From: an uncultured Candidatus Rokubacteria bacterium
GTDB taxonomy: Bacteria; Methylomirabilota; Methylomirabilia; Rokubacteriales; CSP1-6
Length of the DNA: 64,000 nt
Direction: 5' to 3'
NCBI GenBank assembly: GCA_963747235.1
Contig: CAVVEU010000033.1
Coordinates: forward strand, 223,282-287,281
Shown here: in pieces, positions 5,068-54,511 of the stretch
How the letters are laid out: each line of letters starts with the position of its first letter
Position numbering within the stretch: the stretch's first letter is position 1
Notes under the pieces: generated by a model
The model's database searches: none
What the model was told of the DNA's origin: nothing
The model's input: the letters and a program-made list of their open reading frames with translations, nothing else
Made by a program: the position numbers and the translations under genes

Positions 5068-5150
5068 CCCCTCACCCTGCCCTCTCCCCTGAGGGGAGAG
5101 GGGGAGTTCGACCCCCTCTCCCTTCCAGGGAGAGGGTTGGGGTGAGGGTG
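5068..5150. repeat. dispersed palindromic repeat, copy A (inverted tandem pair)
   Basis: CTCACCCTGCCCTCTCCCCTGAGGGGAGAGGG followed by an inverted second unit (..CCCTCTCCCTTCCAGGGAGAGGGTTGGGGTGAGGG); a 10-bp stem and 3-nt loop hairpin core; intergenic between rluE and the SDR gene. Confidence 0.85.
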
Positions 5151-5153
5151 CGC

Positions 5154-5930
5154 CTAGAAGATGGCGTAGCCGCCGTCGATGACGAAGGTGTCGCCGGTGT
5201 GGTAGCTGCTCGCGTCGCTGGCCAGGTAGACCGCGATGCCGCCGAAGTCGCCGCCGGTGCCCCAGCGCCGCACGGGCACCCGCGGGAGCACGCGCGTCTG
5301 GAAGACCTCGCCGTGGACGGCCTTCTCGGTCATCGGCGTGTCGATCCAGCCGGGCACGATGGCGTTGACGCGGATCTTGTGGCGCGCGAGCCCGACCGAG
5401 AGCGCGCGCATGACCGAGAGCATCGCGCCCTTGCTGGCCGCGTAGTGGGCGCTGAGCGGCGAGCCCTCGAGCGCGGCGAGGCTCGCGGTGACCGCCAGCG
5501 AGCCGCCCGCCCCGCGCGCGGTCATGTGCCGGGCCGCCGCGCGCAGGGTGAAGAAGGCGCCGTCGAGATTCACCGCGAGCACCCGGTGCCACTCCTGGGT
5601 GGTCATCTCCGCGAAGCTCGTGGCGCCGCCGCGGCCGGACACGCCCGCGTTGACGAAGCAGGCGTCCACCCCGCCGAGGGTGGACACGGTCTCCTTGAAG
5701 GCGTGCTCCACGGCAGCCTCGTCGCTCACGTCGCAGCGGAGCGCCAGAGCCTTCGCCCCGATCGCGTGCAGGCGCGCGAGCGCGTGCACGTTCTTGTCCT
5801 CGTTGGTGCCCCAGATGCAGACCGCGGCGCCGGCGTGCGCCATCGCCTCCGCCATTCCGAGGCCGATGCCGCTGTTGCCGCCGGTGACGATCGCGGTCTT
5901 ACCGGTGAGATCGAAGGCCTTGTACGCCAT
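5154..5930 (-). CDS. SDR-family oxidoreductase (short-chain dehydrogenase/reductase)
   Basis: TGGNSGIGLG Rossmann motif, YAASKGAM catalytic Y-x3-K, 258 aa uninterrupted ORF. Confidence 0.9.
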   Translation of the reverse strand: MAYKAFDLTGKTAIVTGGNSGIGLGMAEAMAHAGAAVCIWGTNEDKNVHALARLHAIGAKALALRCDVSDEAAVEHAFKETVSTLGGVDACFVNAGVSGRGGATSFAEMTTQEWHRVLAVNLDGAFFTLRAAARHMTARGAGGSLAVTASLAALEGSPLSAHYAASKGAMLSVMRALSVGLARHKIRVNAIVPGWIDTPMTEKAVHGEVFQTRVLPRVPVRRWGTGGDFGGIAVYLASDASSYHTGDTFVIDGGYAIF

Positions 5931-5945
5931 GAGACGGCTCTCCTC

Positions 5946-7493
5946 CTACGGCCGCATGCGATGGGTGGACGGACCCACTTCGCGCAGCGGCGCGGCCAGC
6001 TCCGCGAACTCGCAGAGCAGCGGGCGCGTGGCGCGCGGGTCGATGATCTCCTCGATCCAGAAGGCCTCCGCCGAGCGGAAGGGCGAGCGAAGCTTCTGCA
6101 GCCGCTCCTCGATCTCGATCATCTTCGCGGCCGGATCGGCGGCGGCCTGGATGTCGGCGCGGTAGGCGGCCTCGATGCCGCCCTCGAGCGGCAGCGAGCC
6201 CCAGCGCCCCGACGGCCACGCGTAGCGCGGGCCGTAGCGCGCCCCCGGCTTGTGGGCCGCGCCGGCCACCCCGAACACGTTCCGGATGATGACCGCGCAC
6301 CACGGAATGGTCGACTGCCAGATCGCGGACATCGCGCGCACGCCCTGCTTGATGGTGCCGGTCTGCTCGGCCTCGAGCCCGATCAGGAAACCCGGGCAGT
6401 CCACCAGGTAGACCACCGGCAGGTGGAAGGTCTGCGCGAAGTCCACGAAGCGCTCCACCTTCTGGCAGGTGTCGGCGGTCCAGGCGCCGCCGTAGAAGTA
6501 GGGATCGCTGGCCAGCACCGCCACCGGCCAGCCGTCGAGCCGGGCGAGGCCGGTGATGATGGCGCGCCCGTAGAGCGGCTGGATCTCGAAGAACGACCCG
6601 CGGTCCACCACCGCCTCCACGATCGCGCGCATCTTGTAGGGCTTGCGGATGTCGCGCGGCACCGCGTCCGAGAGCCACTCCTCACGGCGCTCCCGGTCGT
6701 CGGTCTGCGGGCCGCGCGGCGGCAGCTCGTAGATGGACGAGGGCAGATACGAGAGGAAGCGCCGCGCCACCGCGAAGGCCTCCTCTTCCGTGTCCACCGC
6801 CTGGTCCACCGCGCCCGCCTTGAGCTGGATCTGCCAGCCGCCGAGCTCGTTCTTGGTGAGCTTCTGGCCGAGCCGCGCGACGACGGGCGGGCCGGCCACG
6901 AAGAGCGCCGACTTGTCCTTCACCATCACCGAGAGGTGCGCGGCCGCGAGATGCGCCGCGCCGAGGCCGGCGACCGAGCCCAGGCCCAGCGCCACGCGCG
7001 GCACGGTGCCGATGCTGTTGACGACCCACTCCCAGCCGGCGACGCCGGGCACGTTGGCGCGCCCGGTGGTCTCGATGGTCTTCACCGAGCCGCCGCCGCC
7101 CGAGCCCTCGACGATGCGGATCAGCGGCAGCCGCAGCTCGTTGGCCATCTGCTCGCACTGGTTGTGCTTGCCCTTGATCGTCGCGTCCGCCGAGCCGCCG
7201 CGCACCGTGAAGTCGTCCCCGCCCACCACCACCGGGCGGCCGTCGAGCCGCGCGCGGCCGAAGACGAAGTTCGACGGCGTCAGCTCCTTCAGATCGTTGT
7301 TGGCGTCGTAGGAGGCCTTCCCGGCGATCTTGCCGATCTCGTGGAAGCTCTGCGCGTCCACCAGGCGGTCGATGCGCTCGCGGATCGTGTAGCGCCCGCC
7401 GTCGTGCTGCCGCTTCACCCGCTCGGGGCCGCCGAGGCCCTCGGCGAACTCCTCGCGGCGCTTCAGGTCGTCCATCTCGGACTTCCAGTTCAT
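5946..7493 (-). CDS. acyl-CoA carboxylase carboxyltransferase beta subunit (propionyl-CoA/methylmalonyl-CoA carboxyltransferase family)
   Basis: 516 aa from MNWKSEMDDLKRREE..; family motifs across both CT domains (..GGSADATIKGKHNQCEQMA..; ..AIVEAVVDRGSFFEIQPLYG..); ATG at 7493. Confidence 0.9.
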   Translation of the reverse strand: MNWKSEMDDLKRREEFAEGLGGPERVKRQHDGGRYTIRERIDRLVDAQSFHEIGKIAGKASYDANNDLKELTPSNFVFGRARLDGRPVVVGGDDFTVRGGSADATIKGKHNQCEQMANELRLPLIRIVEGSGGGGSVKTIETTGRANVPGVAGWEWVVNSIGTVPRVALGLGSVAGLGAAHLAAAHLSVMVKDKSALFVAGPPVVARLGQKLTKNELGGWQIQLKAGAVDQAVDTEEEAFAVARRFLSYLPSSIYELPPRGPQTDDRERREEWLSDAVPRDIRKPYKMRAIVEAVVDRGSFFEIQPLYGRAIITGLARLDGWPVAVLASDPYFYGGAWTADTCQKVERFVDFAQTFHLPVVYLVDCPGFLIGLEAEQTGTIKQGVRAMSAIWQSTIPWCAVIIRNVFGVAGAAHKPGARYGPRYAWPSGRWGSLPLEGGIEAAYRADIQAAADPAAKMIEIEERLQKLRSPFRSAEAFWIEEIIDPRATRPLLCEFAELAAPLREVGPSTHRMRP

Positions 7494-7537
7494 GGGGAGA
7501 CCTCCGCGGGGATGGTAGCAGGGCGCGCGCGGGATGC

Positions 7538-7961
7538 CTAGGCGGGGCCGAACACGAGCGAGATGCGATTCCGGTCGTCCGCCCGCCGGTATTCCACGTG
7601 CCGGGCCATGGCGGAGACGAGGAGCACGCCGAGCCCACCCACCGGACGGTCCTGCACGTCCGCGTCCGGATCGGGGCTCACCACCGCCGCGAACGGGTCG
7701 TGCGGCGGGCCGGTGTCCTCGTAGACGAGCGTGATGCGGCCGGGCGCGACGCTCGCAGTCGAGCCGCACCGGCGCGTCGCTGTCCGCGCCGTGCCCGTGC
7801 ACGACCGTGTTGGTGAAGAGCTCCTCCACCAGGAGCGTGACCCGCAGGCACATCGCCCGGTCGAGCCCGGCCGCCGCGCACACCTCGGCGAGGAAGGCCT
7901 CGACCTGCGGCAGGGCGTCGCGGCGGGCGGGGAAGATCCGGAGGTATCGAAGGCCGCTCAC
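7538..7961 (-). CDS. anti-sigma regulatory factor (RsbW/SpoIIAB-like HATPase_c serine kinase), apparent frameshift near 7745
   Basis: N-terminal ..LPQVEAFLAEVCAAAGLDRAMCLRVTLLVEELFTNTVVHG.. then, after a 1-nt shift, ..GRITLVYEDTGPPHDPFAAV..PVGGLGVLLVSAMARHVEYRRADDRNRISLVFGPA*; about 141 aa; immediately upstream of the carboxyltransferase gene on the same strand. Confidence 0.7.
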
Positions 7962-8046
7962 TGAGCTATTGTAAGGGCCGCCGCGAGCGCGTCAACGCTC
8001 TGAGAGAGCCCTGGACCAACGCCGTCGTCGGGAGGAACACCGCGCC

Positions 8047-9069: not shown

Positions 9070-9136
9070 GCCGAGCCGTCACCCGCGCGGCTTGCTGGAG
9101 AGGTCAGACAAGGCCGGGCGGGCGGAGGCCCGTCAC

Positions 9137-9635
9137 CTATCCCGCGTGAGCCCGCCTCAGCTCCGCGATGTCGATCTTCTTCATGCGCAGCATCGCGGTC
9201 ATGACTCGCTGGGACTTCGCCGGATCGGGGTCCATGAGCAGCTCGACCAGCACGCGGGGCACGATCTGCCAGGAGACGCCGTACCGGTCCTTGAGCCAGC
9301 CGCACTGCTGGGCGTTCGGGTCCCCGCCCTCGGACAGCGTCGTCCAGTAGTGGTCCACCTCGGCCTGGGTCTCGCAATTGACCTGGAGCGAGATGGCCTC
9401 GTTGAACTTGAAGAACGGGCCGCCGTTGAGCGCGGTGAACGTCTGCCCATCCAGCTCGAAGGCGACGGTCATCACCGATCCCGCCGGCCTCCCGTGGATC
9501 TCCTTCCCGGCTTCTCCGTACCGGGACACGGTCACGACCTTCGAGTTCTTGAAGATCGCGGTATAGAACGCGCACGGCCTCCTCGGCCTGATCGTCGAAC
9601 CACAGGCAGGGGGTGATCTTCTGAACGACCGGCAT
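9137..9635 (-). CDS. PhnB-like/VOC-family protein (3-demethylubiquinone-9 3-methyltransferase-like domain), apparent frameshift near 9570
   Basis: Starts MPVVQKITPCLWFDDQAEEAV (ATG 9635, RBS GGAGGA); continues in a second frame ..AIFKNSKVVTVSRYGEAGKE..MTVAFELDGQTFTALNGGP..QQCGWLKDRYGVSWQIVP.. Confidence 0.7.
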
Positions 9636-9717
9636 GGTATTCCTCCTCTGGGGTCATTTCGGCTGACACGCGCCGTCCTCACCAGCTAGTCGCTCGAGGA
9701 CCCCCGGGATCGACACC

Positions 9718-10004
9718 TCATGCTCGGCGCTGGACGTTCCGAAAGCGGGCCGCCCCCTTCGCGCGGGCCTTCGCCGCCTCCGCCTCGCGGTCGCGGGGAC
9801 GGCGCGTTCGTGACGAGCGCATCGAGCAGGACCCGGGCCGCCTGCGCCACCTCATCGACCGCTCGGGTGAACGCCGGCTCGTTGGCCCTGGATGGCCTCG
9901 AGAACCCACTCAGCTTCCGGACGAACTGCAGAGCACGACGCCCGGATCTCCTCCTCCGTGGCCGGCGGCTTGAAGTTGTACAGCGTCTTGATGCTTCGGC
10001 ACAT
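9718..10004 (-). CDS. DUF2277-family small protein, two apparent frameshifts
   Basis: MCRSIKTLYNFKPPATEEEIRAS.. / ..LQFVRKLSGFSRPSRANEPAFTRAVDEVAQAAR.. / ..PRDREAEAAKARAKGAARF.. match the DUF2277 consensus across three frames; ATG 10004 with RBS. Confidence 0.55.
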
Positions 10005-10023
10005 GCGAACACCTCCTTATCTG

Positions 10024-10389
10024 TCAGGTGCTGTATCGAGCATCGACGTATGCCCACGCACGTACTCCCGATCGAAGGACCACCGCCACGCGCTTGACCG
10101 CCGCGACCTCGTACCGGTCGGCATTCTGAATCTCATCTGGCGTGACCGCAAACACCGTCCCCGCGATGACGTCCGAGGCCCGTCCGGTGAACCTGGCCAT
10201 GGTGTGCTGCGCCGTTCCGCTGATCGCAATCACCGCCGGGTCCTCGATCTCCAGCGAGGCCAGCTCGAATCCTACCAAAGCATCGCCGGTACCCGCCAAT
10301 GGCCGACCGAACGTCGCCATCTGTACCGACTCGAGCTGGAGCGTGCCGTACGAGAAGAGGAGCTCAGGGTACGCCTCGTTCACCGCCAT
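10024..10389 (-). CDS. gamma-glutamyl cyclotransferase-like (GGCT/AIG2-like) protein
   Basis: LFSYGTLQ N-terminal motif of the GGCT fold; 121 aa. Confidence 0.55.
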   Translation of the reverse strand: MAVNEAYPELLFSYGTLQLESVQMATFGRPLAGTGDALVGFELASLEIEDPAVIAISGTAQHTMARFTGRASDVIAGTVFAVTPDEIQNADRYEVAAVKRVAVVLRSGVRAWAYVDARYST

Positions 10390-10545
10390 GGGATCTCCGT
10401 TGCCGTCGAGGTTACTTCAAGCGTGCGAGACCACCCTCTGCCGCAAGGATAATGCACCCGCGACCCTGTTCGCCATTTGCGTTGGTGGCGGGCTGCTTCG
10501 TTTGAAGATGGCGGTGGCCTCGCGCCGCCGCCTAGCCGTCCCAGC

Positions 10546-10926
10546 TCAGCCGTCGGCTGGAGCACGCGAGACGACCACGTCCATCGCTCGACGAAGACTA
10601 CGAGAGCCTCTTGGCACTCTCTCGAGCTCGGAGAAGACCGCCTCCCATTGCGGTGGATCGAGCCATTCATAGAGATGGCCGTCATCATCAACATCAATGG
10701 TGGGCGCTAGCGACCGGATGCGCGCCTGCCACGCGGCAAACGCCCGCCTCGACGCGACTGCCTCCAGATGGCTCCGCCACATCAGCCACAGGCCGAGTGC
10801 CATGGCTAGACCGAATAGCCAAAGGAACAGAGGACTCCATGGCCGAGGCCGCACAACGACAAACACGAGAAGGAGTAGCGCCCAGAGAAGATAGTGCGCG
10901 AATTGAGAACGCAGGAACCTAGTCAT
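10546..10926 (-). CDS. hypothetical membrane protein (two predicted TM helices)
   Basis: ORF in the lower-GC islet; hydrophobic segments YLLWALLLLVFVVV and LFLWLFGLAMALGLWLMW; no recognisable family. Confidence 0.4.
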   Translation of the reverse strand: MTRFLRSQFAHYLLWALLLLVFVVVRPRPWSPLFLWLFGLAMALGLWLMWRSHLEAVASRRAFAAWQARIRSLAPTIDVDDDGHLYEWLDPPQWEAVFSELERVPRGSRSLRRAMDVVVSRAPADG

Positions 10927-10985
10927 CGCTCTGGCTCCAAACGTTCGCGCTAACCGGCCGCCGAGGAGCGAAGCGACGAGGGATC

Positions 10986-11004
10986 CCGCAAGCGCAGCTT
11001 GCGG
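10986..11004 (-). terminator. perfect hairpin CCGCAAGC-GCA-GCTTGCGG downstream of the minus-strand methyltransferase operon
   Basis: 8-bp stem and 3-nt loop, 85 nt beyond the methyltransferase stop; no U-tract, as is common in high-GC genomes. Confidence 0.3.
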
Positions 11005-11088
11005 ACGGTCCGGTTGAGCGCGGGGTTAGGGGCCATCCTGGCCGGCGGGCGATACGGGCAGGCGGATACGCGGACGCGTGGCCTTGGG

Positions 11089-11907
11089 CTACGGTTGGGC
11101 GACCGCAATTTGACCTTCAATCGGGAATGCCAATCCGTCATCGTTCAAATAACTCTGCATTGCTTCGGTCACTTGACGGATCAATGCCTCACGCACGGCG
11201 TCGTCGACTTGGGCGACGTGGGTGGCCAGGGGCGAGCCCGCCACTTGATACCGGACGAACGCCGCGGGCGATGCAAAGCGGACCATTCGCACGTCTGCGC
11301 CCACGCGAACTGTTCGGAACCCTGCCTGCGTCAGCAAATCGCGAAGGCCGTCGGTGCGGTCACCAAACACAAACGGTGCGCGCATTACCGCAGCAGCTGC
11401 GGGGCTCACATTCAGTTCTAAGGCCGTCGCCAGGGCGGCAAAGCCAGGACTGTGGGCGAGCGCTCGCCAAACCAAGGTCACCAGGCGCCCAGTGGGCTTG
11501 AGGACCCGATGCATCTCGCGCGCAGCCTGTTGCCGGTCTGGGAAGTATTGGAACCCAAGCTGACAGAACACTGCATCAAAACTGCTCGTGTCAAACGGCA
11601 GCGCCCCGGCATCCCCTTCTCGCCAATCCACTGTCGCACCTCCGGGCGGCGCCGAGCCGCGGGCGCGGGCGAGCATGCCCGGGTTGAGATCAAGGCCTAC
11701 GACATGTCCCGTCGGTCCGACCTGTGGTGCGACCAAGCGCGTAACGGCGCCCGTGCCGCATGCAACGTCGAGCGCATGCTCACCCGCACGAAGTGCCGCT
11801 TGGGCCACGAGTACAGGTGCCCATGGCCCAAAGATGGCGGGCACGAGCTGAGTCTCGTAGACCTCTGGAGCATTGCCGCCGAGTTGCCACCCCTCCGCTT
11901 GACTCAT
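11089..11907 (-). CDS. class I SAM-dependent methyltransferase (Methyltransf_11/25-like)
   Basis: LDVACGTGAVTR motif I, DAVFC motif; probable start MSQAEGWQL. Confidence 0.85.
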   Translation of the reverse strand: MSQAEGWQLGGNAPEVYETQLVPAIFGPWAPVLVAQAALRAGEHALDVACGTGAVTRLVAPQVGPTGHVVGLDLNPGMLARARGSAPPGGATVDWREGDAGALPFDTSSFDAVFCQLGFQYFPDRQQAAREMHRVLKPTGRLVTLVWRALAHSPGFAALATALELNVSPAAAAVMRAPFVFGDRTDGLRDLLTQAGFRTVRVGADVRMVRFASPAAFVRYQVAGSPLATHVAQVDDAVREALIRQVTEAMQSYLNDDGLAFPIEGQIAVAQP

Positions 11908-11945
11908 CTGTGTCTCCTTTGTGGCCCCTACCGGCGGCTTATCCC

Positions 11946-12365
11946 TCATAGGGCTTTCTTCATCAGCGCGAGATAGAAGCCCTTGGCGTAGCCCTCAAGC
12001 CGGACTACCTCCTCGTAGCCATGCTTTTGGTAGAACCGCGGCGCCTGCCACTCGAAGGTCTCGAGAGCCGCGTTTCGCGCCCCCATCTCTCTCGCGAGAC
12101 ACTCGGCCTCAGTCAATAATCGGGAGCCGATGCCCCTCCCGCGCGCAGCCTCGTCAACCCAAAGAACTTCGACACGGAGCCAATAGAGCGCCACAATCGC
12201 TCGAATTCCACCTACGACGGACCCATCGGCCTCTCGGGCGTTGAGCCGAATGTACTCCGTCGCCGGGTACTCGCCGACATACGTATGGTTGAACTCGCGA
12301 AGCCGGCGACCAATCTCACCGGACTGAACCTCTTCTTCGGTGGCAAGCGAAATGGTGACAGTCAT
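11946..12365 (-). CDS. GNAT-family N-acetyltransferase
   Basis: ..VDEAARGRGIGSRLLTEAE.. acetyl-CoA binding motif (R-x-x-G-x-G/A); 139 aa. Confidence 0.85.
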   Translation of the reverse strand: MTVTISLATEEEVQSGEIGRRLREFNHTYVGEYPATEYIRLNAREADGSVVGGIRAIVALYWLRVEVLWVDEAARGRGIGSRLLTEAECLAREMGARNAALETFEWQAPRFYQKHGYEEVVRLEGYAKGFYLALMKKAL

Positions 12366-12380
12366 GAGGGATAACGTGCG

Positions 12381-12695
12381 TTAGGTGGAATACGCAGGGC
12401 CACCTACGCCAGGAACCACCATCGTTTTAAGGATTACCGATTCCCGGTCGGTTGCCAACGACAACAGCTCGAGGTCAGCGCGATAGGCAGCGAACTGTTC
12501 CTGACCAGGGAAGCTGACAAGATGTATCTCAAACGGGATATCCGGCGAATTCTCTTGCCCCGTGCGAATCACCTTTTCGATTGAGCCGCCATACTTCCTC
12601 ATGATTCGGGCCGCCTTTCGCTCATAGGCTTCGAATTCAGCAACGGCGCCTGGGCGGACCCACAGACTTACGACCCGATAGATTGGACTCTGCAC
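12381..12695 (-). CDS. DUF1330-domain protein
   Basis: About 104 aa; ..EFEAYERKAARIMRKYGGSIEKVIRTG..EIHLVSFPGQEQFAAYRADLE.. typical of DUF1330 (dimeric alpha/beta barrel). Confidence 0.65.
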   Translation of the reverse strand: MQSPIYRVVSLWVRPGAVAEFEAYERKAARIMRKYGGSIEKVIRTGQENSPDIPFEIHLVSFPGQEQFAAYRADLELLSLATDRESVILKTMVVPGVGGPAYST

Positions 12696-12797
12696 TCAAA
12701 CCTCCAAGCCCACCCAACGATTTGTTAGACGCCCTCAAACGGCAACTAGCCACCGCGAGTACACACCCTCTATCAGGTCAGTACCTGTCACATGTGC

Positions 12798-13250
12798 TCA
12801 GCGGGAAGTCTGCTGCCCGAGCTCTTGGGCAAGCCCGATGAGAATTCCTTCGGGGCCGCGGATGTAGCAGAGCCGATACATGTCTTCGTACTGGACCACT
12901 TTGCCGACGAGCTCCGCGCCGCGTTTGCCGAGCCGGGCGAGCGTATCGTCGACGTCCTCCACGGTGAACATGACGCGCAGGTAACCGAGAGCGTTCACCG
13001 GGGCGCTGCGGTGATCGGCGACCACAGGCGGCGCGAGAAATCGGGACATCTCGAGCCGGCTGTGACCGTCCGGTGTACGCATCATGGCAATCTCGACGCG
13101 CATGTCGCGCAATCCAGTGACGCCATCTGCCCAGGCTCCTTCGATTGGAGCGCGCCCCTCGAGCTCGAGGCCAAGTTCGGTGAAGAACTCAATGGCGGCG
13201 TCGATGTCTTCTACCACGATGCCGACGTTGTCCATACGCTTCACCGTCAT
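12798..13250 (-). CDS. VOC-family protein (glyoxalase/bleomycin-resistance fold)
   Basis: MDNVGIVVEDIDAAIEFFTELGLELEGR..; 150 aa. Confidence 0.8.
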   Translation of the reverse strand: MTVKRMDNVGIVVEDIDAAIEFFTELGLELEGRAPIEGAWADGVTGLRDMRVEIAMMRTPDGHSRLEMSRFLAPPVVADHRSAPVNALGYLRVMFTVEDVDDTLARLGKRGAELVGKVVQYEDMYRLCYIRGPEGILIGLAQELGQQTSR

Positions 13251-13261
13251 GATGTCTCCTT

Positions 13262-13337
13262 GGCGTCTAACGATCCCGCTCAGCGGCCGGGGTGAGCAAC
13301 GCGAACCCCGGTCCGCTGCAGTGGGAAGTTAGACGCC
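13262..13337. repeat. 10-bp perfect inverted repeat GGCGTCTAAC...GTTAGACGCC flanking a nested GC hairpin; a third copy of the 10-mer at 12724-12733
   Basis: Direct reading of the sequence; sits between the VOC gene start and the small membrane gene stop, and the third copy lies in the DUF1330 promoter region. Confidence 0.6.
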
Positions 13338-13595
13338 TCACTGCGACAAGCCGCGGGCCAACATGTAAATACCGGCCGCACCCACCAGGACCGACACCAC
13401 GCCAATCGCTCGGGTGACAAGCACGTAAGCCCGACTCCCTAAGTACCGCGCTCCCGAACGGGTCACGGCAATTCCCTCGGCTCTGGGGGCCAGGCGCCGC
13501 TGATTCGACTCGGCCGTCGACAGGCAGTAAATGCCTACAACCACAAACACCACGCTCACGAACCAGGGAAATACAGAACTGAGAACGTGTCCCAC
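13338..13595 (-). CDS. small hypothetical membrane protein (two TM helices)
   Basis: 85 aa, two hydrophobic helices; no family recognised. Confidence 0.4.
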   Translation of the reverse strand: MGHVLSSVFPWFVSVVFVVVGIYCLSTAESNQRRLAPRAEGIAVTRSGARYLGSRAYVLVTRAIGVVSVLVGAAGIYMLARGLSQ

Positions 13596-13659
13596 TCTGC
13601 CCTACCCCCTCAATCCCGGGCCCCCACCAGTGCGTCTCTAACTAGAAGTATCTAGGTCT

Positions 13660-13707
13660 GGATAATTCGGCCGGGCGCGGGCTTGATGCGGATAATCCGG
13701 CCGGGCG
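13660..13707. promoter_or_regulatory. direct repeats GGATAATTCGGCCGGGCG / GGATAATCCGGCCGGGCG (30-bp periodicity) upstream of the FecR-OmpA pair
   Basis: Two 18-bp copies with one mismatch; each contains a GATAAT hexamer (Fur-box-like unit). Confidence 0.4.
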
Positions 13708-13926
13708 GACCGGGGCGGTTTGGCTGGAGCGGCTTTGGGGGATGCGGGGTTGCGCATGGTCCCGTGGTGCGGGTCTAGTTTTACACAGACCTGGACATTT
13801 CTGGATGGGAGCTCGGGGGACGGGGTGCGGGAGTTCCGGCCGACGGGTTCGACGCTTTGCGCTATGATGAGGCGCTCTCGGCCCGGATGCGCTCGGGCCT
13901 CGATCCCCGCAGTCGAAGGAGACGGT

Positions 13927-14390: not shown

Positions 14391-14991
14391 ATGGCCAGCC
14401 GGGCCGCCCTCGCGGCGCTCGCACTGCTCCTCCTGGTGGGCTGCGCCAAGCCCATGCGCGACGATCTCTACGTGCTGATGCCGGACAAGGACGGCAAGAC
14501 CGGCGTGCTCAGCGTGGAGAGCGGCGGCCAGCAGGCCGTCCTCGATCAGCCCTATGCCTCCGCGCGCGTGACGGAGCCGGGCCGCGTGGCGGCGGGCCCG
14601 ATCACGGAGCAGGAGGCCCGCCGGGCCTTCTCGGGCGCGCTGGACGCGCAGCCGCCGCGGCCGACGTCCTTCATCCTCTACTTCCTCGAGGGCCGGGACG
14701 AGCTGACCCCGGACTCCCGCCAGCTCCTCGGCCGCATCGTGGACGAGATCGCCCGGCGGCCCGCGCCGGAGATCATCGTCATCGGCCACACCGACCGGGT
14801 CGGCGCGGTGCCCTACAACGACACGCTCTCGCTCCGGCGCGCCGAGCGGGTGCGGGACGAGCTGGTGAAGGTCGGCATCGCGGCCGACCGCATCCGGGTG
14901 GAAGGGCGCGGGGAGCGCGAGCCGCTCGTGCCGACGCCGGACGAGGTGGCCGGAGCCGCGGAATCGGCGGGTGGAGATCAACGTCCGGTAG
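14391..14991 (+). CDS. OmpA-family lipoprotein, apparent frameshift near 14950
   Basis: Lipobox LLVGCA; OmpA C-domain IVIGHTDRVGAVPYNDTLSLRRAERVRDELVKVGIAADRIRVEGRGEREPL; canonical end ..EPRNRRVEINVR* only in the +1 frame (TAG 14989-14991). Confidence 0.75.
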
Positions 14992-14992
14992 A

Positions 14993-15041
14993 GCCCCTCA
15001 GGGGCCCCTCACCCTGCCCTCTCCCCTGAGGGGAGAGGGAG
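14993..15041. repeat. dispersed palindromic repeat, copy B
   Basis: CCCCTCAGGGGCCCCTCACCCTGCCCTCTCCCCTGAGGGGAGAGGGAGAG between convergent genes. Confidence 0.85.
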
Positions 15042-15043
15042 AG

Positions 15044-17190
15044 TCAGGTGCCGGTGTAGCGGATGATCAGGACCGCCATGTCGTCTGACGGCTCGGTGCC
15101 ACCGGTGAAGGCGGCCACGTCGCGGCGGATCGCTTCACCCACCTCGGCCGCGCTCGCCGCCCCGCCCACGCGACCCAGCAGCGCGTGGAGCCGCTCCCGG
15201 CCGTAGAGCTGCCCGTCGGGGCCGGCCGCCTCGGTGATGCCGTCGGTGAACAGGCACAGCGTGTCGCCGGGCTCGAGCCGGCGCGTCGCCGGCACGTAGG
15301 GAAACCCGTCCACCGCAGCAGAGCGGCGGGCCCCCGCCCTCGGCCAGGCGGCAGCAGCGCGCGGCCGCCGCGCGGGAGCAGCAGCGGCGGCTCGTGGCCC
15401 GCGCTGCAGTACTCGAGCTCGCCGGTGCGGGCGTCGAGGATGCCGGCCAGCACCGTGACGAAGAGGTCCTCCGCGTTGTCGCGCGAGATCTCCGCGTTGG
15501 CCTCGCGCATCATCACCGCCACCTGGCCGTGCCGGCGCAGCGCGGTGCTCTTGTAGAGCGCCTTGCTGATCGCCATGAAGAGGCTGCCGGGCAGGCCCTT
15601 GCCCGAGACGTCGCCGATCATGAAGAAGAGATGGTCGGCATCCAGCAGAAAGAAGTCGTACAGGTCGCCGCCGACCTCGCGCGCGGGCTCCAGCATCGCG
15701 TACAGATCGAAGCGGCGTCTCGCCCGGAAAGGCGGCCGCCGCGCGCGGCAGGGTGCCCATCTGGATCCGGCGCGCGGCCTCCAGCTCGCCGGCCAGCCGC
15801 GCCGCCGCCTCCCGCTGCTGCTCCACCTGCCGGCGCAGCGCGCGACGCTGCGTCTGGGTCTCGGTGAGGGTGACCACGAGCATCATGGAGAACAGCAGGG
15901 CGAGGGCCACGGAGGGGACGGCGACGTCCAGGAGGACGCCCATCCTCAGATAGAGGAGCAGCCCGAACCCCGCCATCGCCGCGACCAGGACGGCGAGCAG
16001 TCCCACCGACGCGCGGGCCGGCAGCCGCGGCACCAGCCCGATGAGGAGCAGTCCGCCGACCAGCAGCCAGCCGATCTCGATCCACCGGACGAACCGCGGA
16101 CGCGAGAGCAGCGATCCCTCCACGATGTTCTCGAGCAGCTGGGCGTGGATCTCGACGCCCGCCATGTGATCGCCCACCGGCGTCGCCAGATGATCCGACA
16201 AGCCGAGCGCGGTCACGCCGATGAGCACCAGGCGACCCTGGAAGAGGCTCGCATCCGCCTGGCCCGCGAGCACGTCGGCCGCCGACACGAAGCGATCGGG
16301 ATCGTGCCGGGTGTAGTGGACCCAGGCGCTGCCGTCCGGGTCGCTGGGAGCCACGAAGGCGCCCACCCCCACCGACTGGATGCCGCGCGGCGGAGACGCG
16401 CACCGAGATCGGGGGCCCGCCTTCCCGCCACGCGGAGCATCTCGAGGCCGAGCGACGGAACCAGCCGCGCCGGCCGACCATGGCCAGCAGGGGGACGCGG
16501 CGGACCACCCCACGCTCCAGGTCCACGCTGGTCAGGCCGTGGCCGAGCGCGGCACGGTCGATCTCATCCACGCTGTGCAGCGCGGCCTCGAAGCGACGGA
16601 GGAAGGGCGCGGGATCGCCGCCGATCGAGCGCACCGGCGCGTGACGGACCTCGGTCGTCGCCTCCGGCGCGCGGCTCTCGAGGCCGGCGATGCCGAGCAC
16701 CACCGGTTGCCCGCGCATCGCCTCGGCCAGCACCGTGTCGTTCCCGCGCAACCGCGAGAGCCGCTGCGCCATGTCGGCGTCCAATGCCGGCCACCATCTC
16801 GGGCAGCCGGGCCGGCGAGAGACGGTCGGGCTCCGCCATGAGGATGGCCAGGCCGATGGCGGCCGGCCGCGCGGCCGCGACCGTCCCCACGATTCGCGCC
16901 AGCCAGGTGCGCGGCCACGGCCACTGCCCGTGCTGCCGCAGGCTCTCCTCGTCGATGGCGACGATGACCACCGGGGCCGTGCGCGGGACGCGCGGGTGGA
17001 GGCTCTGGTAGGTGTCGAACGTGCTAGCGCGCAGCAGGCGGAGCCCCGGCAGCTCCGGCAGCAGCAGCCCGAGCAGGAGCGCGGCCAGCAGCAGCGCGCC
17101 GGCCGGCCGGCCGCGCCCGCCCAGGAGCGCGCGGGCCCACCGCCGCTCCGCCCAGTGCGAGGCGGCCGCGGGCCGCTGGTCGGACGACGT
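15044..17190 (-). CDS. CHASE2 sensor domain + PP2C/SpoIIE serine phosphatase (RsbU/RsbP-like), at least three apparent frameshifts; start approximate
   Basis: N-terminal TM + CHASE2 (..VVIVAIDEESLRQHGQWPWPRTWLARI..), several TM helices, then PP2C (..LEPAREVGGDLYDFFLLDADHLFFMIGDVSGKGLPGSLFMA.. and ..PGDTLCLFTDGITEA..) across three frames. Confidence 0.7.
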
Positions 17191-21688: not shown

Positions 21689-21883
21689 AGGCACTCGGTG
21701 CGGTTCATGACGCGCGCAGGTACGGCATTGATCTTATTGGGGGGGAGCGGCGGCGCTCCTCCCCCAAGCCCCCCCACCGCATCATTCACTTGCGCGGGGC
21801 CGGTTCCGGTCTGCGGGCGGACATCCGTCGACCACAGGTCTGCTCGATGCGCACGCTGACTCAGATCGTCGGCCATCACCCTC

Positions 21884-45787: not shown

Positions 45788-45858
45788 GGCGACAGATGAT
45801 ACCGCGCTTGACAGGGCCAGCGCCCCACCGCATCATCGGCCGCGCAGCCCGGTGTTTC

Positions 45859-45894
45859 ACCCCTCACCCTGCCCTCTCCCCTGAGGGGAGAGGG
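45859..45894. repeat. dispersed palindromic repeat, copy C
   Basis: CCCTCACCCTGCCCTCTCCCCTGAGGGGAGAGGG in the promoter region of the alcohol dehydrogenase gene. Confidence 0.85.
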
Positions 45895-47925: not shown

Positions 47926-47939
47926 GCATCCTCCGACGC

Positions 47940-49049: not shown

Positions 49050-49080
49050 GAGGCTCCTCCCCTTCTGCTAGATTCTGGCG

Positions 49081-51133: not shown

Positions 51134-51850
51134 TCGCCATCGGCACGTCCGGCTACAACTATCCGGAGTGGCGCGGCTCCTTCTATCCGGAGAAGTTCCC
51201 CACCGGCAAGATGCTGCCCTACTATGCCGAGCGCTTCTCCACGGTGGAGATCAACTACACCTTCTACCGGATGCCCAATGCCAAGACCATCGCGGGCTGG
51301 GTCGCGGAGACGCCCGCGAGCTTCTCGTTCACGCTGAAGGCGCCGCAGCGGATCACCCACTTCGCGCGGCTACGCGAGATCGGCGATCCGCTGCGCTACT
51401 TCCTCGACACCGCGGCCGGCCTCGGGCCCAAGCTCGGCCCGGTGCTGTTCCAGCTCCCGCCCAACTTCAAGAAGGACCTGGCGCGGCTGGGCGGTCTGCT
51501 CGATCAGCTCCCCGCGGGCCTGCGCTGCGCGATGGAGTTCCGTCACGAGAGCTGGTTCGCGGACGACGTGTACGAGCGCCTGCGCGCGGCCAACGCCGCG
51601 CTCTGCGTGGCCGATACCGAGGAGGCCACCACGCCGGTCGAGGCGACCGCCGACTGGGGCTACCTGCGCCTGCGCGACCAGGGCTATACCGCGGCCGATC
51701 TCGAGGGCTGGGGCCGGCGGATCCAGGAGATGGGCGCGCGGTGGGGCGACACCTTCGTCTACTTCAAGCACGAGGAGGCCGGGACCGGCCCCGCGTTCGC
51801 CCGCCAGCTCCGGGAGCTCTCGACCCTGAGTCCTGACCCGCCACTCCTCA
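51130..51850 (+). CDS. DUF72-family protein; the 3' end runs into a repeat element
   Basis: MIAIGTSGYNYPEWRGSFYPEK..YYAERFSTVEINYTFYRMP..VLFQLPPNFKKD.. DUF72 signature; the ORF has no stop until 52077 because it reads through repeat copy D, so the true end is uncertain. Confidence 0.75.
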
Positions 51851-51875
51851 CCGCCCTCTCCCTGAGGGGAGAGGG
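51847..51875. repeat. dispersed palindromic repeat, copy D (diverged left arm)
   Basis: CTCACCGCCCTCTCCCTGAGGGGAGAGGG between convergent DUF72 and ligD; both ORFs terminate inside or near it. Confidence 0.8.
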
Positions 51876-54511
51876 TTCTGGCGGGGCTCGATGCGCTCGA
51901 GGGCGGCGGCCATGTCGATGCCGTCGCCCAGCACCGGCGTCAGCGGATCCGCCATCTTGTCGAAGCGCGACGGGCAGGGTCTTGAGCGTGAAGCGCGCCG
52001 GATCGAGGCGCGGCGTCACCTCGCGCCACTCGAGCGGGCAGGAGGCGGGGGCGCCGGGCAGCGGCCGCAGCGAGTAGGGCGCGACGATGGTCTGGCCGTG
52101 GCCGTTCTGGCCGAAGTCGATATAGACCTTGCCCCCGCGGATCGCGGAGCGGCCGGGCCACCGTCGAGATCTCGGGCTCGGCCTCCACGCCCATCACCGC
52201 GAGCAGCCGCGCGAAGGTCCGGCACTGCTCGTAGGTGTAGCGCGCGGCCAGCGGCAGCAGGATGTGCAGCCCGGTGGCGCCCGAGGTCTTCACGTAGCTC
52301 GGCAGCTCGAGCCGATCCAGGATGCGGCGCAGGGCGAGCGCGACGCGGACCACGTCGGTGAAGGGCGCGCCCTTGGGGTCGAGGTCGAGCACCAGCCAGT
52401 CCGGCCGCTCGAGCGACGGGACCCGCGACGCCCAGAGATGGATCGGGATCGCGCCGCTATTGGCCACGTAGCGCAGCATCTCGACGTCGTCCACGACCAG
52501 GTACGCGATGTCGCGCTCGGTGTCCCGCGAGTAGATGCGCTCGGTGCGCACCCAGGCCGGCGCGAAATCGGGCGCGTCCTTCTGGTAGAACGACTTGCCG
52601 GTGATCCCGTCGGGAAAGCGCGTGAGCACCAAGGGGCGGTCCCGGAGATACGGCAGCATCAGGGGCGCGACACGCTCGTAGTACGCGATCAGATCGCCCT
52701 TGGTGTAGCCCTCGGCGGGCCAGAATACCTTCTTGATGTTCGTTGGCTTGAGCCGGGGCTCTTCCTGCTCGAGCCCCCTCACCCTGCCCTCTCCCCCTCT
52801 CGGGGGAGAGGGAGCATCCGCTCTCACCCTCTCCCCTCGGCGGAGAGGGCAGGGTGAGGGGCGGCTCCTCCAGAGCTTCCTCCCGCCGGCACTCCAGCGG
52901 CTTCTTGTCGTCGCGCAGGCCGATGAACGTGGGGTGACGGAGGCCGCCGTCCTCGGTCCAGTCGGTGAAGCGCACCTCGGCGACGAGACGGGGCTCGACC
53001 CAGTGGTGGCCGCGGCCGGTCGGGATCGTGCCCGCGTCGAAGGGCGGGGTGGCGCGGGCGAGCGGGCGGAGCTTGTCCAGGATCGCCTCGAGCCTCGCGT
53101 CGTCGAAGCCGGTGCCGACCTTGGAGACGTAGACGAGGCGCGGGGCGGAAGCGGGCCCTTCGTAGACGCCCAGATGCAGCGCGCCGAAGTGGCCGCGGGA
53201 GCCCTGGGGGTCCGTGTAGCCGCCGATCACGAACTCCTGGCGGCGCTGGCACTTGATCTTGATCCAGTCGCGCGTGCGCGCACCCGAATACACGCTCCGC
53301 GCCCGCTTGGCCACCATCCCCTCGAGGCGCTGCTCGGCGGCCAGCTCGAAGAAGGCCTTGCCCTCCTCCATGACGTGGTCGCCGTAGCGGACGGCGCCGA
53401 GCGACGGAACCAGCAGCCGCAGGCACTCCTTGCGGTCCACGAGCGGCAGCTTCCGCAGATCGCGATCGTCGAGCATCAGGCAGTCGAAGAACACGCCGAT
53501 CGCGGGGCGCTGGACGGCCATCCGCTCGATCTCGCGCAGATCGGTGAGCGCCATGCGCGGCTGCAGCCGCTGGAAGCTCGGACGCCCCGCGTCGTCGAGA
53601 GCCACGATCTCGCCGTCGATGACGAAGGACTCCACGGGCAGCGCGCGCAGCGCGCGGACCACCTCCGGGTAGCGCGAGGTGGTGTCCTGACCGCTCCGAC
53701 CGTACAGCTCGACGCGGTCCCCACGCCGCGAGGCGAGCACGCGCACGCCGTCGTACTTGATCTCGAAGAGCCAGGCCGGATCCGAGAACGGCTGCTCGGC
53801 GAGGGTGGCCAGCGTGAAGGGCTGGCGGCGCGCGGTCACCTCGCCGCGCGGCGCCTTCAACGCGTCGAGGCGCGCGCGGATCGTGGCGAGCCGCCCGGAG
53901 ACGTTGGCCATCTCCTCGACGGTGAGCCCGGAAAGCACCGACTGCGGGTAGCGCTCGGTCAGCTCGGCCGCGTCGGGCGGAATCGCGGCGCCGTCCGCCT
54001 TCTTCAGCAGCAGCCAGTCCTTGTCCTTGCCCGACATGCGGGCCAGCGTCCAGCGCCCGCGCATCTTGTGGCCGAAGATCTCCACCTCGAGCTTGCCGCG
54101 CGCGAGCTGCGTGAGCGGATCCTCGGGCTTGGCGGACCGGTACCAGCCGCGGTCCCACACGATGACCGAGCCGGCGCCGTAGTTGCCGGGCGGGATCACG
54201 CCCTCGAAGTCGCCGTACTCGATGGGGTGGTCCTCGACGTGGACCGCGAGCCGCTTCTCCTCCGCGCGCAGGGACGGCCCCTTCGGCACCGCCCAGCTCT
54301 TCAGCACCCCGTCCATCTCGAGGCGCAGATCGTAGTGCAGCCGCCGCGCCGCGTGCTTCTGCACCACGAAGAGCCGGCCGCCGGTGGGCGGCCGCCCGCC
54401 GAAGGGCTCCGGCGTGCGCTCGGGGTCGCGCTTCTTGCGGTACGTGGTGAGCTCGGGCCCAATACGTCGCCCCTTCTTGCCGCGTGCACCACCATCCCGT
54501 GCGGTTGCCAT
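51848..54511 (-). CDS. ligD: ATP-dependent DNA ligase D (PE-ligase-polymerase domain order), two apparent frameshifts near 52000 and 52800
   Basis: Phosphoesterase domain (..RLFVVQKHAARRLHYDLRLE..WAVPKGPS..), ligase domain (FEIKYDGVRVL adenylation Lys), polymerase/primase domain (..KPTNIKKVFWPAEGYTKGDLIAYYE..KTSGATGLHILLPL..); repeat copy E sits in the ligase-polymerase linker. Confidence 0.85.
52776..52861. repeat. dispersed palindromic repeat, copy E (inverted pair) inside the ligD interdomain linker
   Basis: CCCTCACCCTGCCCTCTCCCCCTCTCGGGGGAGAGGG ... CTCACCCTCTCCCCTCGGCGGAGAGGGCAGGGTGAGGGG; translated as ..PLTLPSPPRGEGESGCSLSPERGRGQGEG.. within the ligD ORF. Confidence 0.85.

What the first reader, a model, noticed from the sequence alone, without database searches (positions are those of the whole stretch)
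5068..52861. Family of dispersed palindromic GGGGAGAGGG-hairpin repeats, including a copy inside the ligD linker
At least five copies of a 35-85 bp element are present at 5068, 14993, 45859, 51847 and 52776. The core is CTCACCCTGCCCTCTCCCCTGAGGGGAGAGGG, a perfect 10-bp stem with a TGA loop. Two copies are inverted tandem pairs that form larger cruciforms. The copies sit between convergent genes (rluE/SDR, OmpA/PP2C, DUF72/ligD) and in one promoter region (the alcohol dehydrogenase). One copy lies inside the ligD reading frame between the ligase and polymerase domains, translated as PLTLPSPPRGEGESG, and coincides with a frame break. DUF72 and ligD both lose their normal stop codons and terminate inside copy D. 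This behaves like a REP/MITE-type element that also serves as a bidirectional terminator and is occasionally exapted or inserted into coding linkers.
Basis: seen in the sequence. Interest (0 to 1): 0.6.

Follow-up and report, generated by a model that had tools for sequence, protein, structure and literature searches.

The report
BoxC palindromic repeats, some inside ligD
The repeats are real, but they belong to the known BoxC / "triplex motif" family first described in E. coli; what is new is that a soil Methylomirabilota-like bacterium carries them and that two sites lie in frame inside the DNA-repair gene ligD.

Summary
The repeat family is real: seven hairpin units at five loci, against about 0.02 expected by chance. 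It is the known BoxC / PIT / TMECO element (Holder et al. 2015, PMC4666352). One unit is 35/36 identical to an E. coli K-12 copy. The same core occurs in at least 10 phyla and on 347 plasmids.

No unit has a T-tract, and published E. coli tests found no promoter or terminator activity. No RAYT homologue turned up in 1.43 Mb of BoxC-bearing DNA. The terminator and REP/RAYT readings are therefore not supported.

Copies come and go quickly. A contig 99.2% identical to the window has 7 nt where the window has the 92-nt pair.

The ligD claim is half right. The pair does lie in the ligase-polymerase linker. In 79 of 79 orthologous loci the linker is in frame, and 12 close relatives translate the same pair. 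The window's frame break is one of about 22 single-base indels in this error-prone sequence. In that linker the paired bases are almost invariant, while loops, bulges and neighbouring synonymous sites diverge. Copy E also lies in frame in ligD's 3' tail in relatives.

Verdict: a known kind in a new host, with a modestly novel in-frame, sequence-constrained coding insertion.

The parts
5065..5102 (-). BoxC unit A1. On the - strand it reads CCCTCTCCCCTCAGGGGAGAGGG-CA-GGGTGAGGGG. On the + strand the CCCCTCACCC head comes before the hairpin.
   Evidence: Exact core. Matches the TMECO pattern with a 2-nt second loop. Sequence read.
5114..5150 (+). BoxC unit A2, CCCTCTCCCTTCCAGGGAGAGGGTTGGGGTGAGGGT. 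With A1 it forms an inverted pair with the heads facing outward. The pair fills the 92-nt spacer between the rluE-like stop (5059-5061) and the SDR stop (5154-5156).
   Evidence: Matches the published TMECO pattern exactly. It is 35/36 identical to E. coli K-12 TMECO no. 12. The pair folds at -78.5 kcal/mol. The pair is absent in L119, which is 99.2% identical. A2 is absent in L046.
15002..15039 (-). BoxC unit B, between the true OmpA-like stop (TAG 14989-14991) and the CHASE2-PP2C stop (15044-15046). A small extra hairpin, GAGCCCCTCAGGGGC, lies at 14991-15005.
45857..45894 (-). BoxC unit C, in the divergent region upstream of the Zn-ADH gene (GTG at 45913). It lies downstream of a sigma-70-like promoter match at 45808-45836, so it is probably in the ADH 5' UTR.
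51844..51875 (-). BoxC unit E, degenerate, with shortened G runs. It lies in the 3' tail of ligD where ligD converges on DUF72. Here it is read NPLPSGRGR*, with the TGA inside GGTGAGG.
   Evidence: Orthologues L120, 121, 124, 126 and 132 read the same element in frame (KPSPLRGEGRVRG) and continue to ...GGRTRGRSRPPRA*. L127, 129 and 130 retain only CCCTCT at the site, and L133 has a partly deleted copy.
52774..52812 (+). BoxC unit D1 (11-bp stem, loop TCTC). In ligD sense it is the second unit, hairpin then tail, translated SPSPPRGGEGRVRG in relatives.
52827..52862 (+). BoxC unit D2. In ligD sense it is the first unit, head then hairpin, translated PPLTLPSPPRGEGE. D2 and D1 form an in-frame inverted pair in the ligase-polymerase linker of ligD.
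   Evidence: The RNA fold of the pair is -83.9 kcal/mol.
51764..54565 (-). ligD (phosphoesterase, ligase and primase-polymerase domains), the host gene of units D1, D2 and E. In this window it is broken by frame shifts at about 52791 (in the pair spacer), 52141 and 51963.
   Evidence: Pfam domains. Three-frame reading. HMM frame switches. 79 intact orthologues.

Best explanation
These are copies of the BoxC element, also called PIT or TMECO, the "intrastrand triplex motif". It is a non-coding GC-rich palindromic repeat of 35-40 nt. Its form is CCCTCNCCC-loop-GGGNGAGGG followed by a third segment GGGTGAGGG, or preceded by CCCTCACCC in the other orientation.

The source is a Methylomirabilota (Rokubacteria)-like genome carrying about 0.1 unit per kb, as single units and as inverted pairs.

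How it behaves:
- Shown: it encodes nothing, has sharp ends and has no conserved flanks.
- Shown: its stems are nearly invariant and its loops are free.
- Shown: it is gained, lost, partly deleted or partly duplicated at orthologous sites even between near-identical strains.
- Shown: it has no intrinsic-terminator anatomy.
- Shown: it sits where extra DNA is tolerated. These places are short spacers (somewhat more often convergent than divergent), a 5' UTR, and disordered protein segments.
- Shown: in ligD an inverted pair sits in frame in the ligase-polymerase linker and a single unit in the C-terminal tail. Both are translated as P/S/G/E/R-rich peptide in relatives.
- Inferred: it persists as a selfish or at best weakly useful structured repeat. 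Its hairpin or triplex-prone single strand provokes replication slippage and repair. That would explain its local instability and its spread, which would need an unknown trans-acting or repair-linked route, possibly helped by plasmids.
- Inferred: the window's frame break inside the pair is a 1-nt sequence error, not biology.
- Shown: in the ligD linker the paired positions are held constant while unpaired and synonymous positions drift.
- Inferred: so the sequence itself is under constraint, by selection or by a correction process.
For: Identity:
- The published pattern and Table 1 of PMC4666352 fit four units. Only A2 has the published 3-nt second loop; A1, B and C fit when a 2-nt loop is allowed.
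- Unit A2 is 35/36 identical to K-12 copy no. 12.
- The 49-nt unit hits 5400 of 5426 E. coli genomes, with a median of 15 places, all unannotated intergenic DNA.

Distribution:
- More than 118 loci in Methylomirabilota, Alpha-, Beta- and Gammaproteobacteria, Desulfobacterota, Planctomycetota, Acidobacteriota, Verrucomicrobiota, Nitrospinota, Chloroflexota, Elusimicrobia and Omnitrophota.
- 347 plasmids but only 2 phages.
- Loops vary, the ends are sharp, and the flanks are not conserved.

Turnover:
- L119, 99.2% identical to the window, has 7 nt in place of the 92-nt pair.
- L046, 87-90% identical, has an extra copy at window 5931-5950, lacks A2 and has tandem head fragments.
- The ligD-tail site is intact, partly deleted, duplicated or reduced to CCCTCT in different relatives.
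- L189/190 carry a decayed copy and L192/194 an amplified arm.

Not a terminator: and the paper's report of negative promoter and terminator tests.

In-frame coding copies:
- 79 of 79 orthologous linkers are in frame.
- The stems are conserved in place. 26 of 31 pairs never vary and 98.6% of cells pair. Only 6 of 67 stem or head columns vary, about half of them at bulge positions. Loop identity is 0.65-0.73, spacer identity 0.66, and flanking third-codon identity 0.73 with 65 of 90 columns variable.

Sequence errors:
- About 22 frame switches without a stop codon.
- Four of them coincide with 1-nt insertions relative to syntenic L046.
- The pair spacer is 14 nt here, against 16, 19, 22 or 25 nt in relatives, which are all 1 mod 3.
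Against: - The mechanism of spread is not shown, here or in the literature. No filled-versus-empty comparison gave a clean insertion signature.
- Several "empty" sites keep CCCTCT and look like deletions, so gain was never observed directly.
- Near-invariance of the stems across phyla and at an orthologous coding site is more than a purely neutral selfish element predicts. It suggests a function or a sequence-specific partner.
- No compensatory changes exist, so structure and sequence constraints cannot be separated.
- The source genome as a whole could not be scanned, so density rests on 64 kb plus related metagenome loci.
- MAG taxonomy may be affected by mis-binning for short contigs, although hits also lie on contigs of 0.9-4.8 Mb.
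Confidence: 0.78

Rival explanations
1. The units are REP/REPIN-type elements mobilised by a RAYT (IS200/IS605-like Y1 transposase) encoded elsewhere in the genome. The inverted pairs would be the replicative REPIN form.
For: - Inverted doublets exist at 2 of 5 loci.
- Copy number is high.
- Presence or absence differs between close strains.
Against: - No GTAG-like conserved tetranucleotide flanks the hairpin.
- tblastn with E. coli RayT against the window plus 1.43 Mb of BoxC-bearing loci gave nothing better than E = 0.47. The one long hit lies antisense in an aminotransferase gene.
- REP families are normally species-specific, whereas this sequence is shared across phyla.
- Holder et al. found no link to mobile elements in E. 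coli.
- The RAYT test is weak: one query, and no whole genome.
Confidence: 0.07
2. The units are functional transcript elements: bidirectional terminators or 3'-end or 5'-end stabilising hairpins, selected at gene ends.
For: - The hairpins are very stable.
- Two loci lie between convergent genes and one lies in a likely 5' UTR.
- In 79 high-GC loci, sites at convergent junctions outnumber divergent ones 21 to 9, against a background of 78 to 75.
Against: - No U-tract follows any unit on either strand.
- Most sites are between tandem genes (45 of 75).
- Three units lie inside the ligD ORF and are read through in relatives.
- E. coli PIT elements showed no promoter or terminator activity.
- In E. 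coli they lie more often upstream than downstream of ORFs.
Confidence: 0.1
3. The element is a sequence-specific functional DNA site, for example the binding or processing site of a widely conserved protein, or a triplex/G-quadruplex switch. It would be kept by purifying selection, and its coding copies in ligD would be maintained for that function.
For: - Paired positions are invariant at an orthologous in-frame site while loops, bulges, spacer and synonymous sites diverge.
- Stems are near-identical across at least 10 phyla with free loops.
- The purine strand carries four G-tracts, GGGG-AGA-GGG-CA-GGG-TGA-GGGG (read directly from the sequence).
- The triplex forms in vitro (PMC4666352).
Against: - Copies are lost between 99%-identical strains without visible consequence.
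- In-frame copies decay in some lineages.
- In vivo footprinting did not detect the triplex, and no gene class is associated with the motif.
- No partner protein is known.
Confidence: 0.2
4. The pattern is chance or an assembly artefact, with one locus collapsed or duplicated.
For: The window sequence is of poor quality, with many 1-nt indels.
Against: - Zero copies are expected in shuffles.
- Every copy has different flanks.
- Independent assemblies carry copies at the same orthologous sites.
Confidence: 0.01

Closest known systems
BoxC / PIT / TMECO intrastrand triplex motif of E. coli and other Proteobacteria (Bachellier et al. 1990s; Hoyne et al. 2000; Holder et al. 2015, PMC4666352)
   Same: - The sequence is the same: CCCTCNCCC-loop-GGGNGAGGG-N-GGGTGAGGG, and one unit is 35/36 identical to a K-12 copy.
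- Loops are free and stems are conserved.
- It is multi-copy, with some inverted pairs.
- It has no coding capacity and no terminator anatomy.
- Loci are unstable between strains.
   Different: - The host is Methylomirabilota-like. The published survey listed only proteobacterial genomes, whereas the core is found here in at least 10 phyla.
- The commonest variant has a 2-nt (CA) rather than a 3-nt second loop.
- Many copies elsewhere carry both head and tail, forming a fully symmetric long hairpin.
- Pairs have their heads outward, whereas the K-12 alx-sstT pair has them inward.
- In E. coli the motif is described as always intergenic. Here three units lie in frame inside ligD.
REP/BIME and REPIN elements with their RAYT transposases
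   Same: Both are short GC-rich extragenic palindromes. Both occur as singlets and inverted doublets, are often found at gene ends, reach high copy number, and vary between strains.
   Different: There is no GTAG-type recognition motif. No RAYT was found nearby or in 1.43 Mb of related loci. The sequence is shared across phyla rather than being species-specific.
Rickettsia palindromic elements (RPEs), selfish DNA inserted in frame in protein genes (reviewed in PMC10969869)
   Same: Both are palindromic repeats found in frame inside conserved protein genes. Both are translated as extra peptide segments in tolerated surface or linker positions.
   Different: The sequences are unrelated and BoxC is much shorter (about 40 nt against about 150 nt). 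In-frame copies are the minority here. The hosts are free-living high-GC bacteria.
Intrinsic (Rho-independent) terminators
   Same: Both have a GC-rich stem-loop, often placed after stop codons.
   Different: No U-tract is present. Published reporter tests of the family were negative.

Membership tests
BoxC / PIT / TMECO | Sequence pattern 5'-CCCTCNCCC N3-6 GGGNGAGGG N3 GGGNGAGGG-3', with one mismatch allowed (PMC4666352) | tested here: met
   four units match when the second loop is allowed to be 2-3 nt. A2 matches the strict N3 form. D1 has an 11-bp stem, D2 has one mismatch, and E is degenerate.
BoxC / PIT / TMECO | Direct sequence similarity to the E. coli copies | tested here: met
   A2 is 35/36 identical to K-12 TMECO no. 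12, including the TTCCA loop. blastn finds it in 5400 of 5426 E. coli genomes at up to 93% identity over 44 nt.
BoxC / PIT / TMECO | Many dispersed copies per genome, some as closely spaced inverted pairs | tested here: met
   There are 7 units in 64 kb, with 2 inverted pairs, and 0.10 units per kb in related loci. The pair arrangement (heads outward) differs from the K-12 example.
BoxC / PIT / TMECO | Intergenic location only (as described for E. coli K-12) | tested here: not met
   Units D1, D2 and E lie within the ligD reading frame, and relatives read them in frame. Units A, B and C are intergenic. This is a descriptive property of the E. coli copies rather than part of the sequence definition.
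BoxC / PIT / TMECO | Loci unusually variable between close relatives | tested here: met
BoxC / PIT / TMECO | The isolated purine-rich strand folds into an intrastrand triplex in vitro | not testable with these tools
   This needs CD or NMR. The three sequence blocks required for it are present.
REP / REPIN (RAYT-dependent) | Conserved GTAG-like tetranucleotide next to the hairpin, recognised by the RAYT (from established knowledge of REP-RAYT systems) | tested here: not met
   None of the 7 units has it, and neither do the flank consensus sequences of 126 instances.
REP / REPIN (RAYT-dependent) | A cognate RAYT gene in the genome, typically flanked by its REPs | tested here: inconclusive
   tblastn with E. 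coli RayT found no relative in the window or in 1.43 Mb of loci. Only one query was used and the whole genome was not available.
MITE | Terminal inverted repeats plus a target-site duplication, derived from an IS | tested here: not met
   Filled-versus-empty comparisons show no duplication. The element is only the hairpin itself, and no related IS was seen.
Intrinsic terminator | GC-rich hairpin immediately followed by a U-rich tract | tested here: not met
   Zero terminator-like sites at all five loci on both strands.
RPE-like in-frame selfish insertion (a behaviour, not a sequence family) | The repeat lies inside a conserved ORF with the reading frame preserved across orthologues | tested here: met
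   79 of 79 LigD linkers are in frame, and 12 carry the same pair. The tail site keeps its frame across inserts of 66-153 nt.

The most novel reading that the evidence does not exclude
BoxC may not be mere junk. Its paired bases are held constant at an orthologous, translated position in ligD while neighbouring synonymous sites turn over, and the same stems recur in at least 10 phyla. This could mean that a conserved, sequence-specific cellular partner or process recognises, copies or corrects the element across bacteria. Candidates are a repair or replication factor, or a yet unknown mobilising enzyme carried on plasmids. The ligD copies would then offer a natural handle for finding that partner.
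Probability: 0.2. Interest if true: 0.7.

Novelty: new member of a known kind. Interest (0 to 1): 0.4.

Why it matters
BoxC has been known for about 30 years, yet it has no known function or mechanism of spread.

- The same sequence occurs far outside the Proteobacteria, and one unit is 35/36 identical to an E. coli copy. This sharpens the question of how it moves or why it is kept.
- The in-frame ligD copies are a useful natural experiment. At one orthologous site, sequence constraint on the element can be measured against the synonymous rate of the host gene. Here the constraint is strong at paired bases.
- The result is also a practical warning. In high-GC genomes these repeats are swallowed into ORFs and shift apparent stop codons. 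In error-prone assemblies they invite false readings of frameshifts and pseudogenes.

Tried and rejected
- Rfam, gathering mode on the whole window: nothing. E-value mode around two loci gave only sub-threshold generic long-hairpin (miRNA-precursor) hits.
- Protein-database search with the 42-aa translated pair: no hits.
- RAYT search by tblastn: no hit. The only long alignment (L094) lies antisense in an aminotransferase gene.
- Low-GC stretch at 9.5-13.9 kb, checked for a transposase: it holds methyltransferase, GNAT and DUF2277 genes and no mobile-element protein.
- A first crude GC3 phase plot missed short frame shifts. It was replaced by a 7-state Viterbi model.
- The downstream codon alignment for the synonymous-rate control was misaligned by a one-codon indel in L125/L126. 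Only the upstream 90 codons were used.
- The idea that the ligD frame break is a programmed or insertion-caused shift was rejected. All 79 orthologues are in frame, and the window has many unrelated 1-nt indels.
- The idea that the "empty" ligD-tail sites are pre-insertion sites was rejected as unproven. They retain CCCTCT and look like deletions.
- The source contig itself could not be retrieved. Only a 1.5-kb JGI contig carrying the identical SDR protein was found.

Full report
**Observation**

The reported repeat is in the sequence.
- The 32-nt core CTCACCCTGCCCTCTCCCCTGAGGGGAGAGGG is exact at 5071, 15008 and 45863 on the + strand. It has two mismatches at 52827-52858 on the - strand. Shuffles of the window give none.
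- A relaxed hairpin pattern, CCCTCNCC-N2-12-GGNGAGGG, finds seven units at five loci: 5080, 5114, 15017, 45872, 51854, 52787 and 52827. About 0.02 are expected.
- Reading the loci shows a common plan. A 10-11-bp hairpin CCCTCTCCCC/GGGGAGAGGG has a free loop. It is preceded by CCCCTCACCC-TG or, in the other orientation, followed by CA/TTG-GGGTGAGGGG.
- At 5065-5150 and 52774-52862 two units lie in inverted orientation with the head and tail outward. Each pair folds as one long hairpin, at -78.5 and -83.9 kcal/mol and z about -7 to -8.

**Identity**

A full-text search for the motif led to Holder et al. 2015 (PMC4666352). This is the BoxC repeat of E. coli. It was later called the PIT element and then TMECO, a G/C-rich "intrastrand triplex motif".
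- Its published pattern is 5'-CCCTCNCCC N3-6 GGGNGAGGG N3 GGGNGAGGG.
- The paper reports 23 copies in K-12, all intergenic, five of them as inverted pairs.
- It reports 3610 copies in 262 proteobacterial genomes, and triplex formation by the isolated strand in vitro but not detected in vivo.
- It reports no promoter or terminator activity in earlier tests, and unusually variable loci between strains.

Four window units fit the pattern when the second loop may be 2-3 nt. Unit A2 (5114-5149) is CCCTCTCCCTTCCAGGGAGAGGGTTGGGGTGAGGGT. It differs by one base from K-12 copy no. 12, which I read directly in the alx-sstT spacer. The 49-nt unit matches 5400 of 5426 complete E. coli genomes, with a median of 15 places per genome and no annotated feature under the matches. 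Rfam has no family for it.

**Host and distribution**
- The window is 87-90% identical over 6.6 kb to a contig of a Candidatus Methylomirabilota MAG (L046). The source is therefore a Methylomirabilota/Rokubacteria-like organism with about 71% GC.
They came from Methylomirabilota, Alpha-, Beta- and Gammaproteobacteria, Desulfobacterota, Planctomycetota, Acidobacteriota, Verrucomicrobiota, Nitrospinota, Chloroflexota, Elusimicrobia and Omnitrophota. Some hits lie on contigs of 0.9-4.8 Mb.
- Across 126 instances the loop is free (GGA, TGA, AGA, GCAGGC and others). The left end is sharp at CCCCT, and nothing beyond the element is conserved.
- The pair also occurs on 347 plasmids: Klebsiella, Azospirillum chromids with up to 39 places, Rhizobium, Aeromonas and others. 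It occurs in only 2 of 50,697 phage records.
- Density is 0.11 units per kb in the window and 0.10 in related metagenome loci.

**Turnover**
- A JGI metagenome contig, 99.2% identical to the window over 1464 nt, encodes the identical SDR protein. It has only GAGGAGC between the SDR and rluE-like stop codons, where the window has the 92-nt pair.
- L046 keeps one unit there with several tandem head fragments and lacks A2. It also has an extra unit just upstream of the SDR start, where the window has none.
- At the ligD 3' site, relatives show an intact unit, a 15-nt or 21-nt internal duplication, a partial deletion, or only the first six bases CCCTCT.
- This matches the instability described for E. 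coli. No comparison showed a target-site duplication or another clean insertion signature. Several "empty" sites look like deletions.

**Quality of the window**

Several genes are broken.
- A seven-state GC3-phase Viterbi model finds about 22 same-strand frame switches with no stop codon nearby.
- Four of them (1207, 1690, 3769, 4404) coincide with 1-nt insertions in the window relative to syntenic L046.
- The breaks affect SpoU methylase (50903), the OmpA-like gene (14948), CHASE2-PP2C (four breaks) and ligD (three: 52791, 52141 and 51963).
- A frame break in this window therefore carries no biological weight by itself.

**ligD linker**

I rebuilt the LigD ligase-C-terminus/polymerase sequence from the three frames and fetched 80 orthologous metagenome loci at 69-89% identity.
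- The segment between LRHPTFIGLRDDKKP and TNIKKVFWP is in frame, with no stop, in all 79 loci where both anchors were found. Only the window is out of frame, at 154 nt against 156-165 nt in its closest relatives.
- Twelve close relatives carry the same inverted BoxC pair in frame. It is translated ...EEPPLTLPSPQRGEGEEEGVSPSPPRGGEGRVRG.... One more relative, L127, has only the second unit.
- The spacer between the two units is 16, 19, 22 or 25 nt in relatives and 14 nt in the window. This fits a 1-nt insertion error.
- Other LigD clades carry other in-frame BoxC copies: HPSPPLRGRGQGEG in L163 and L165-173, and PLTLPSPPEGERG in L191-194. One copy has a triplicated arm, and L189/190 carry a decayed remnant.
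- Still other clades carry a second, unrelated palindromic repeat in either orientation (LIGGERAPLLPQ or LGGGAASAPPQ).
- The linker is thus a tolerated landing place for palindromic repeats. This behaviour is best known from Rickettsia palindromic elements (PMC10969869).

**Constraint at the linker copy**

Across 12 orthologous loci, 26 of 31 base pairs of the pair never vary, and 98.6% of cells form pairs.
- Only 6 of 67 head or stem columns vary, and about half of those are the unpaired TG/CA bulges.
- Loops have a pairwise identity of 0.65-0.73 and the spacer 0.66.
- Third codon positions in the 90 codons upstream have 0.73 identity, with 65 of 90 columns variable.
- Loops differ by single substitutions, and close relatives share them. 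This argues for vertical descent rather than repeated replacement.
- There are no compensatory changes, so the constraint cannot be assigned to structure rather than sequence. Still, the paired sequence is clearly kept, by selection or by some correction process. This is the most interesting result of the follow-up.

**ligD 3' end and DUF72**
- After two further frame corrections, the window's LigD ends ...ERIEPRQNPLPSGRGR*, with the TGA inside the GGTGAGG of unit E.
- In most orthologues the ORF continues 22-51 codons past ...ERIE and ends in a conserved GGRTRGRSRPPRA*. This tail is encoded antisense to the conserved C-terminus of the convergent DUF72 gene. The frame is kept across inserts of very different length.
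- In L121, 124, 126 and 132 the BoxC unit is read in frame as KPSPLRGEGRVRG within that tail. L120 reads it the same way but reaches a stop 63 nt past the anchor, at the end of the held sequence.
- The window still has ...APGAGGRTRGRSRPPRA* in the same frame after its TGA. Unit E here is short in its G runs, so either a real truncation or sequence errors are possible.
- DUF72 does not stop inside the unit. As written, it reads through to 52077. Relatives end ...ARQLRELLDR*, and a 1-nt deficit at about 51815 explains the window. The corrected end is LDPES* at 51836.
- OmpA likewise ends at NRRVEINVR* before unit B, not in the TGA loop.

**Function**
- No unit is followed by a T-tract on either strand.
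- Unit C lies downstream of a sigma-70-like match, TTGACA-17-CATCAT at 45808-45836, so it is probably in the ADH 5' UTR.
- In 79 high-GC loci, BoxC sites lie at convergent junctions 21 times, divergent junctions 9 times and tandem junctions 45 times. The background is 78, 75 and 330. This is a mild preference for 3' ends, not a rule.
- No RayT relative was found in the window or in 1.43 Mb of BoxC-bearing DNA, and no transposase lies in the window's low-GC stretch.

**Conclusion**

The terminator and RAYT readings are not supported, and the frame break is a sequence error.

The best-supported account is of a non-coding, structure-prone palindromic repeat.
- Shown: it turns over quickly.
- Shown: it accumulates wherever extra sequence is tolerated, including disordered protein segments.
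- Shown: its paired sequence is nonetheless held constant.
- Inferred: its spread and instability come from hairpin or triplex formation during replication and repair, or from an unidentified trans-acting factor.

Noticed in passing
window 21731-21781: A second palindromic repeat family, CTTATTGGGGGGGAGCGGCGGCGCTCCTCCCCCAAGCCCCCCCACCGC, lies in an intergenic stretch. The same element sits in frame in the LigD linker of L128, 129, 136, 144 and 152 in one orientation (PVLIGGERAPLLPQAPPP). It sits in L134, 135, 137 and 155 in the other orientation (GGLGGGAASAPPQSEQ).
   Followed up: partly
window 1-64000 (for example 1209, 1692, 3764, 4400, 14948, 15314, 15710, 16380, 16783, 50903, 51963, 52141, 52791): There are about 22 same-strand frame switches without a stop codon. 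Several are verified as 1-nt insertions relative to a syntenic relative. The sequence looks like an unpolished long-read or otherwise error-prone assembly, so apparent pseudogenes here should not be trusted.
   Followed up: yes
window 51764-51845 (- strand) and L121-L161, L176-L194: In most orthologues the LigD ORF overlaps the convergent DUF72 gene antisense by about 60-70 nt. It ends in a conserved basic tail, GGRTRGRSRPPRA*. The frame is preserved across inserts of 66-153 nt, which suggests the tail is really translated.
   Followed up: partly
window 9500-13900: This stretch has lower GC (61-63% against about 71%). It holds a class I methyltransferase, a GNAT acetyltransferase, a DUF2277 gene and several ORFs without Pfam hits. 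No transposase was found, and the GC3 model calls it non-coding because its codon usage differs.
   Followed up: partly
L046 2290-2400 (orthologous to window 5040-5110): A tandem run of four degenerate BoxC heads (GCCCCTCACC...) sits next to a single intact unit. This looks like slippage products of the head segment.
   Followed up: no
L192 and L194 LigD linker and tail: The 3' arm of an in-frame BoxC unit is triplicated (EGERG repeats). The LigD tail of the same loci carries a REAEG repeat after another unit. Both expansions are in frame.
   Followed up: no
window 45808-45836: A near-consensus sigma-70-type promoter match, TTGACA-17-CATCAT, lies upstream of the Zn-dependent alcohol dehydrogenase gene. 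BoxC unit C lies between it and the ribosome-binding site.
   Followed up: no
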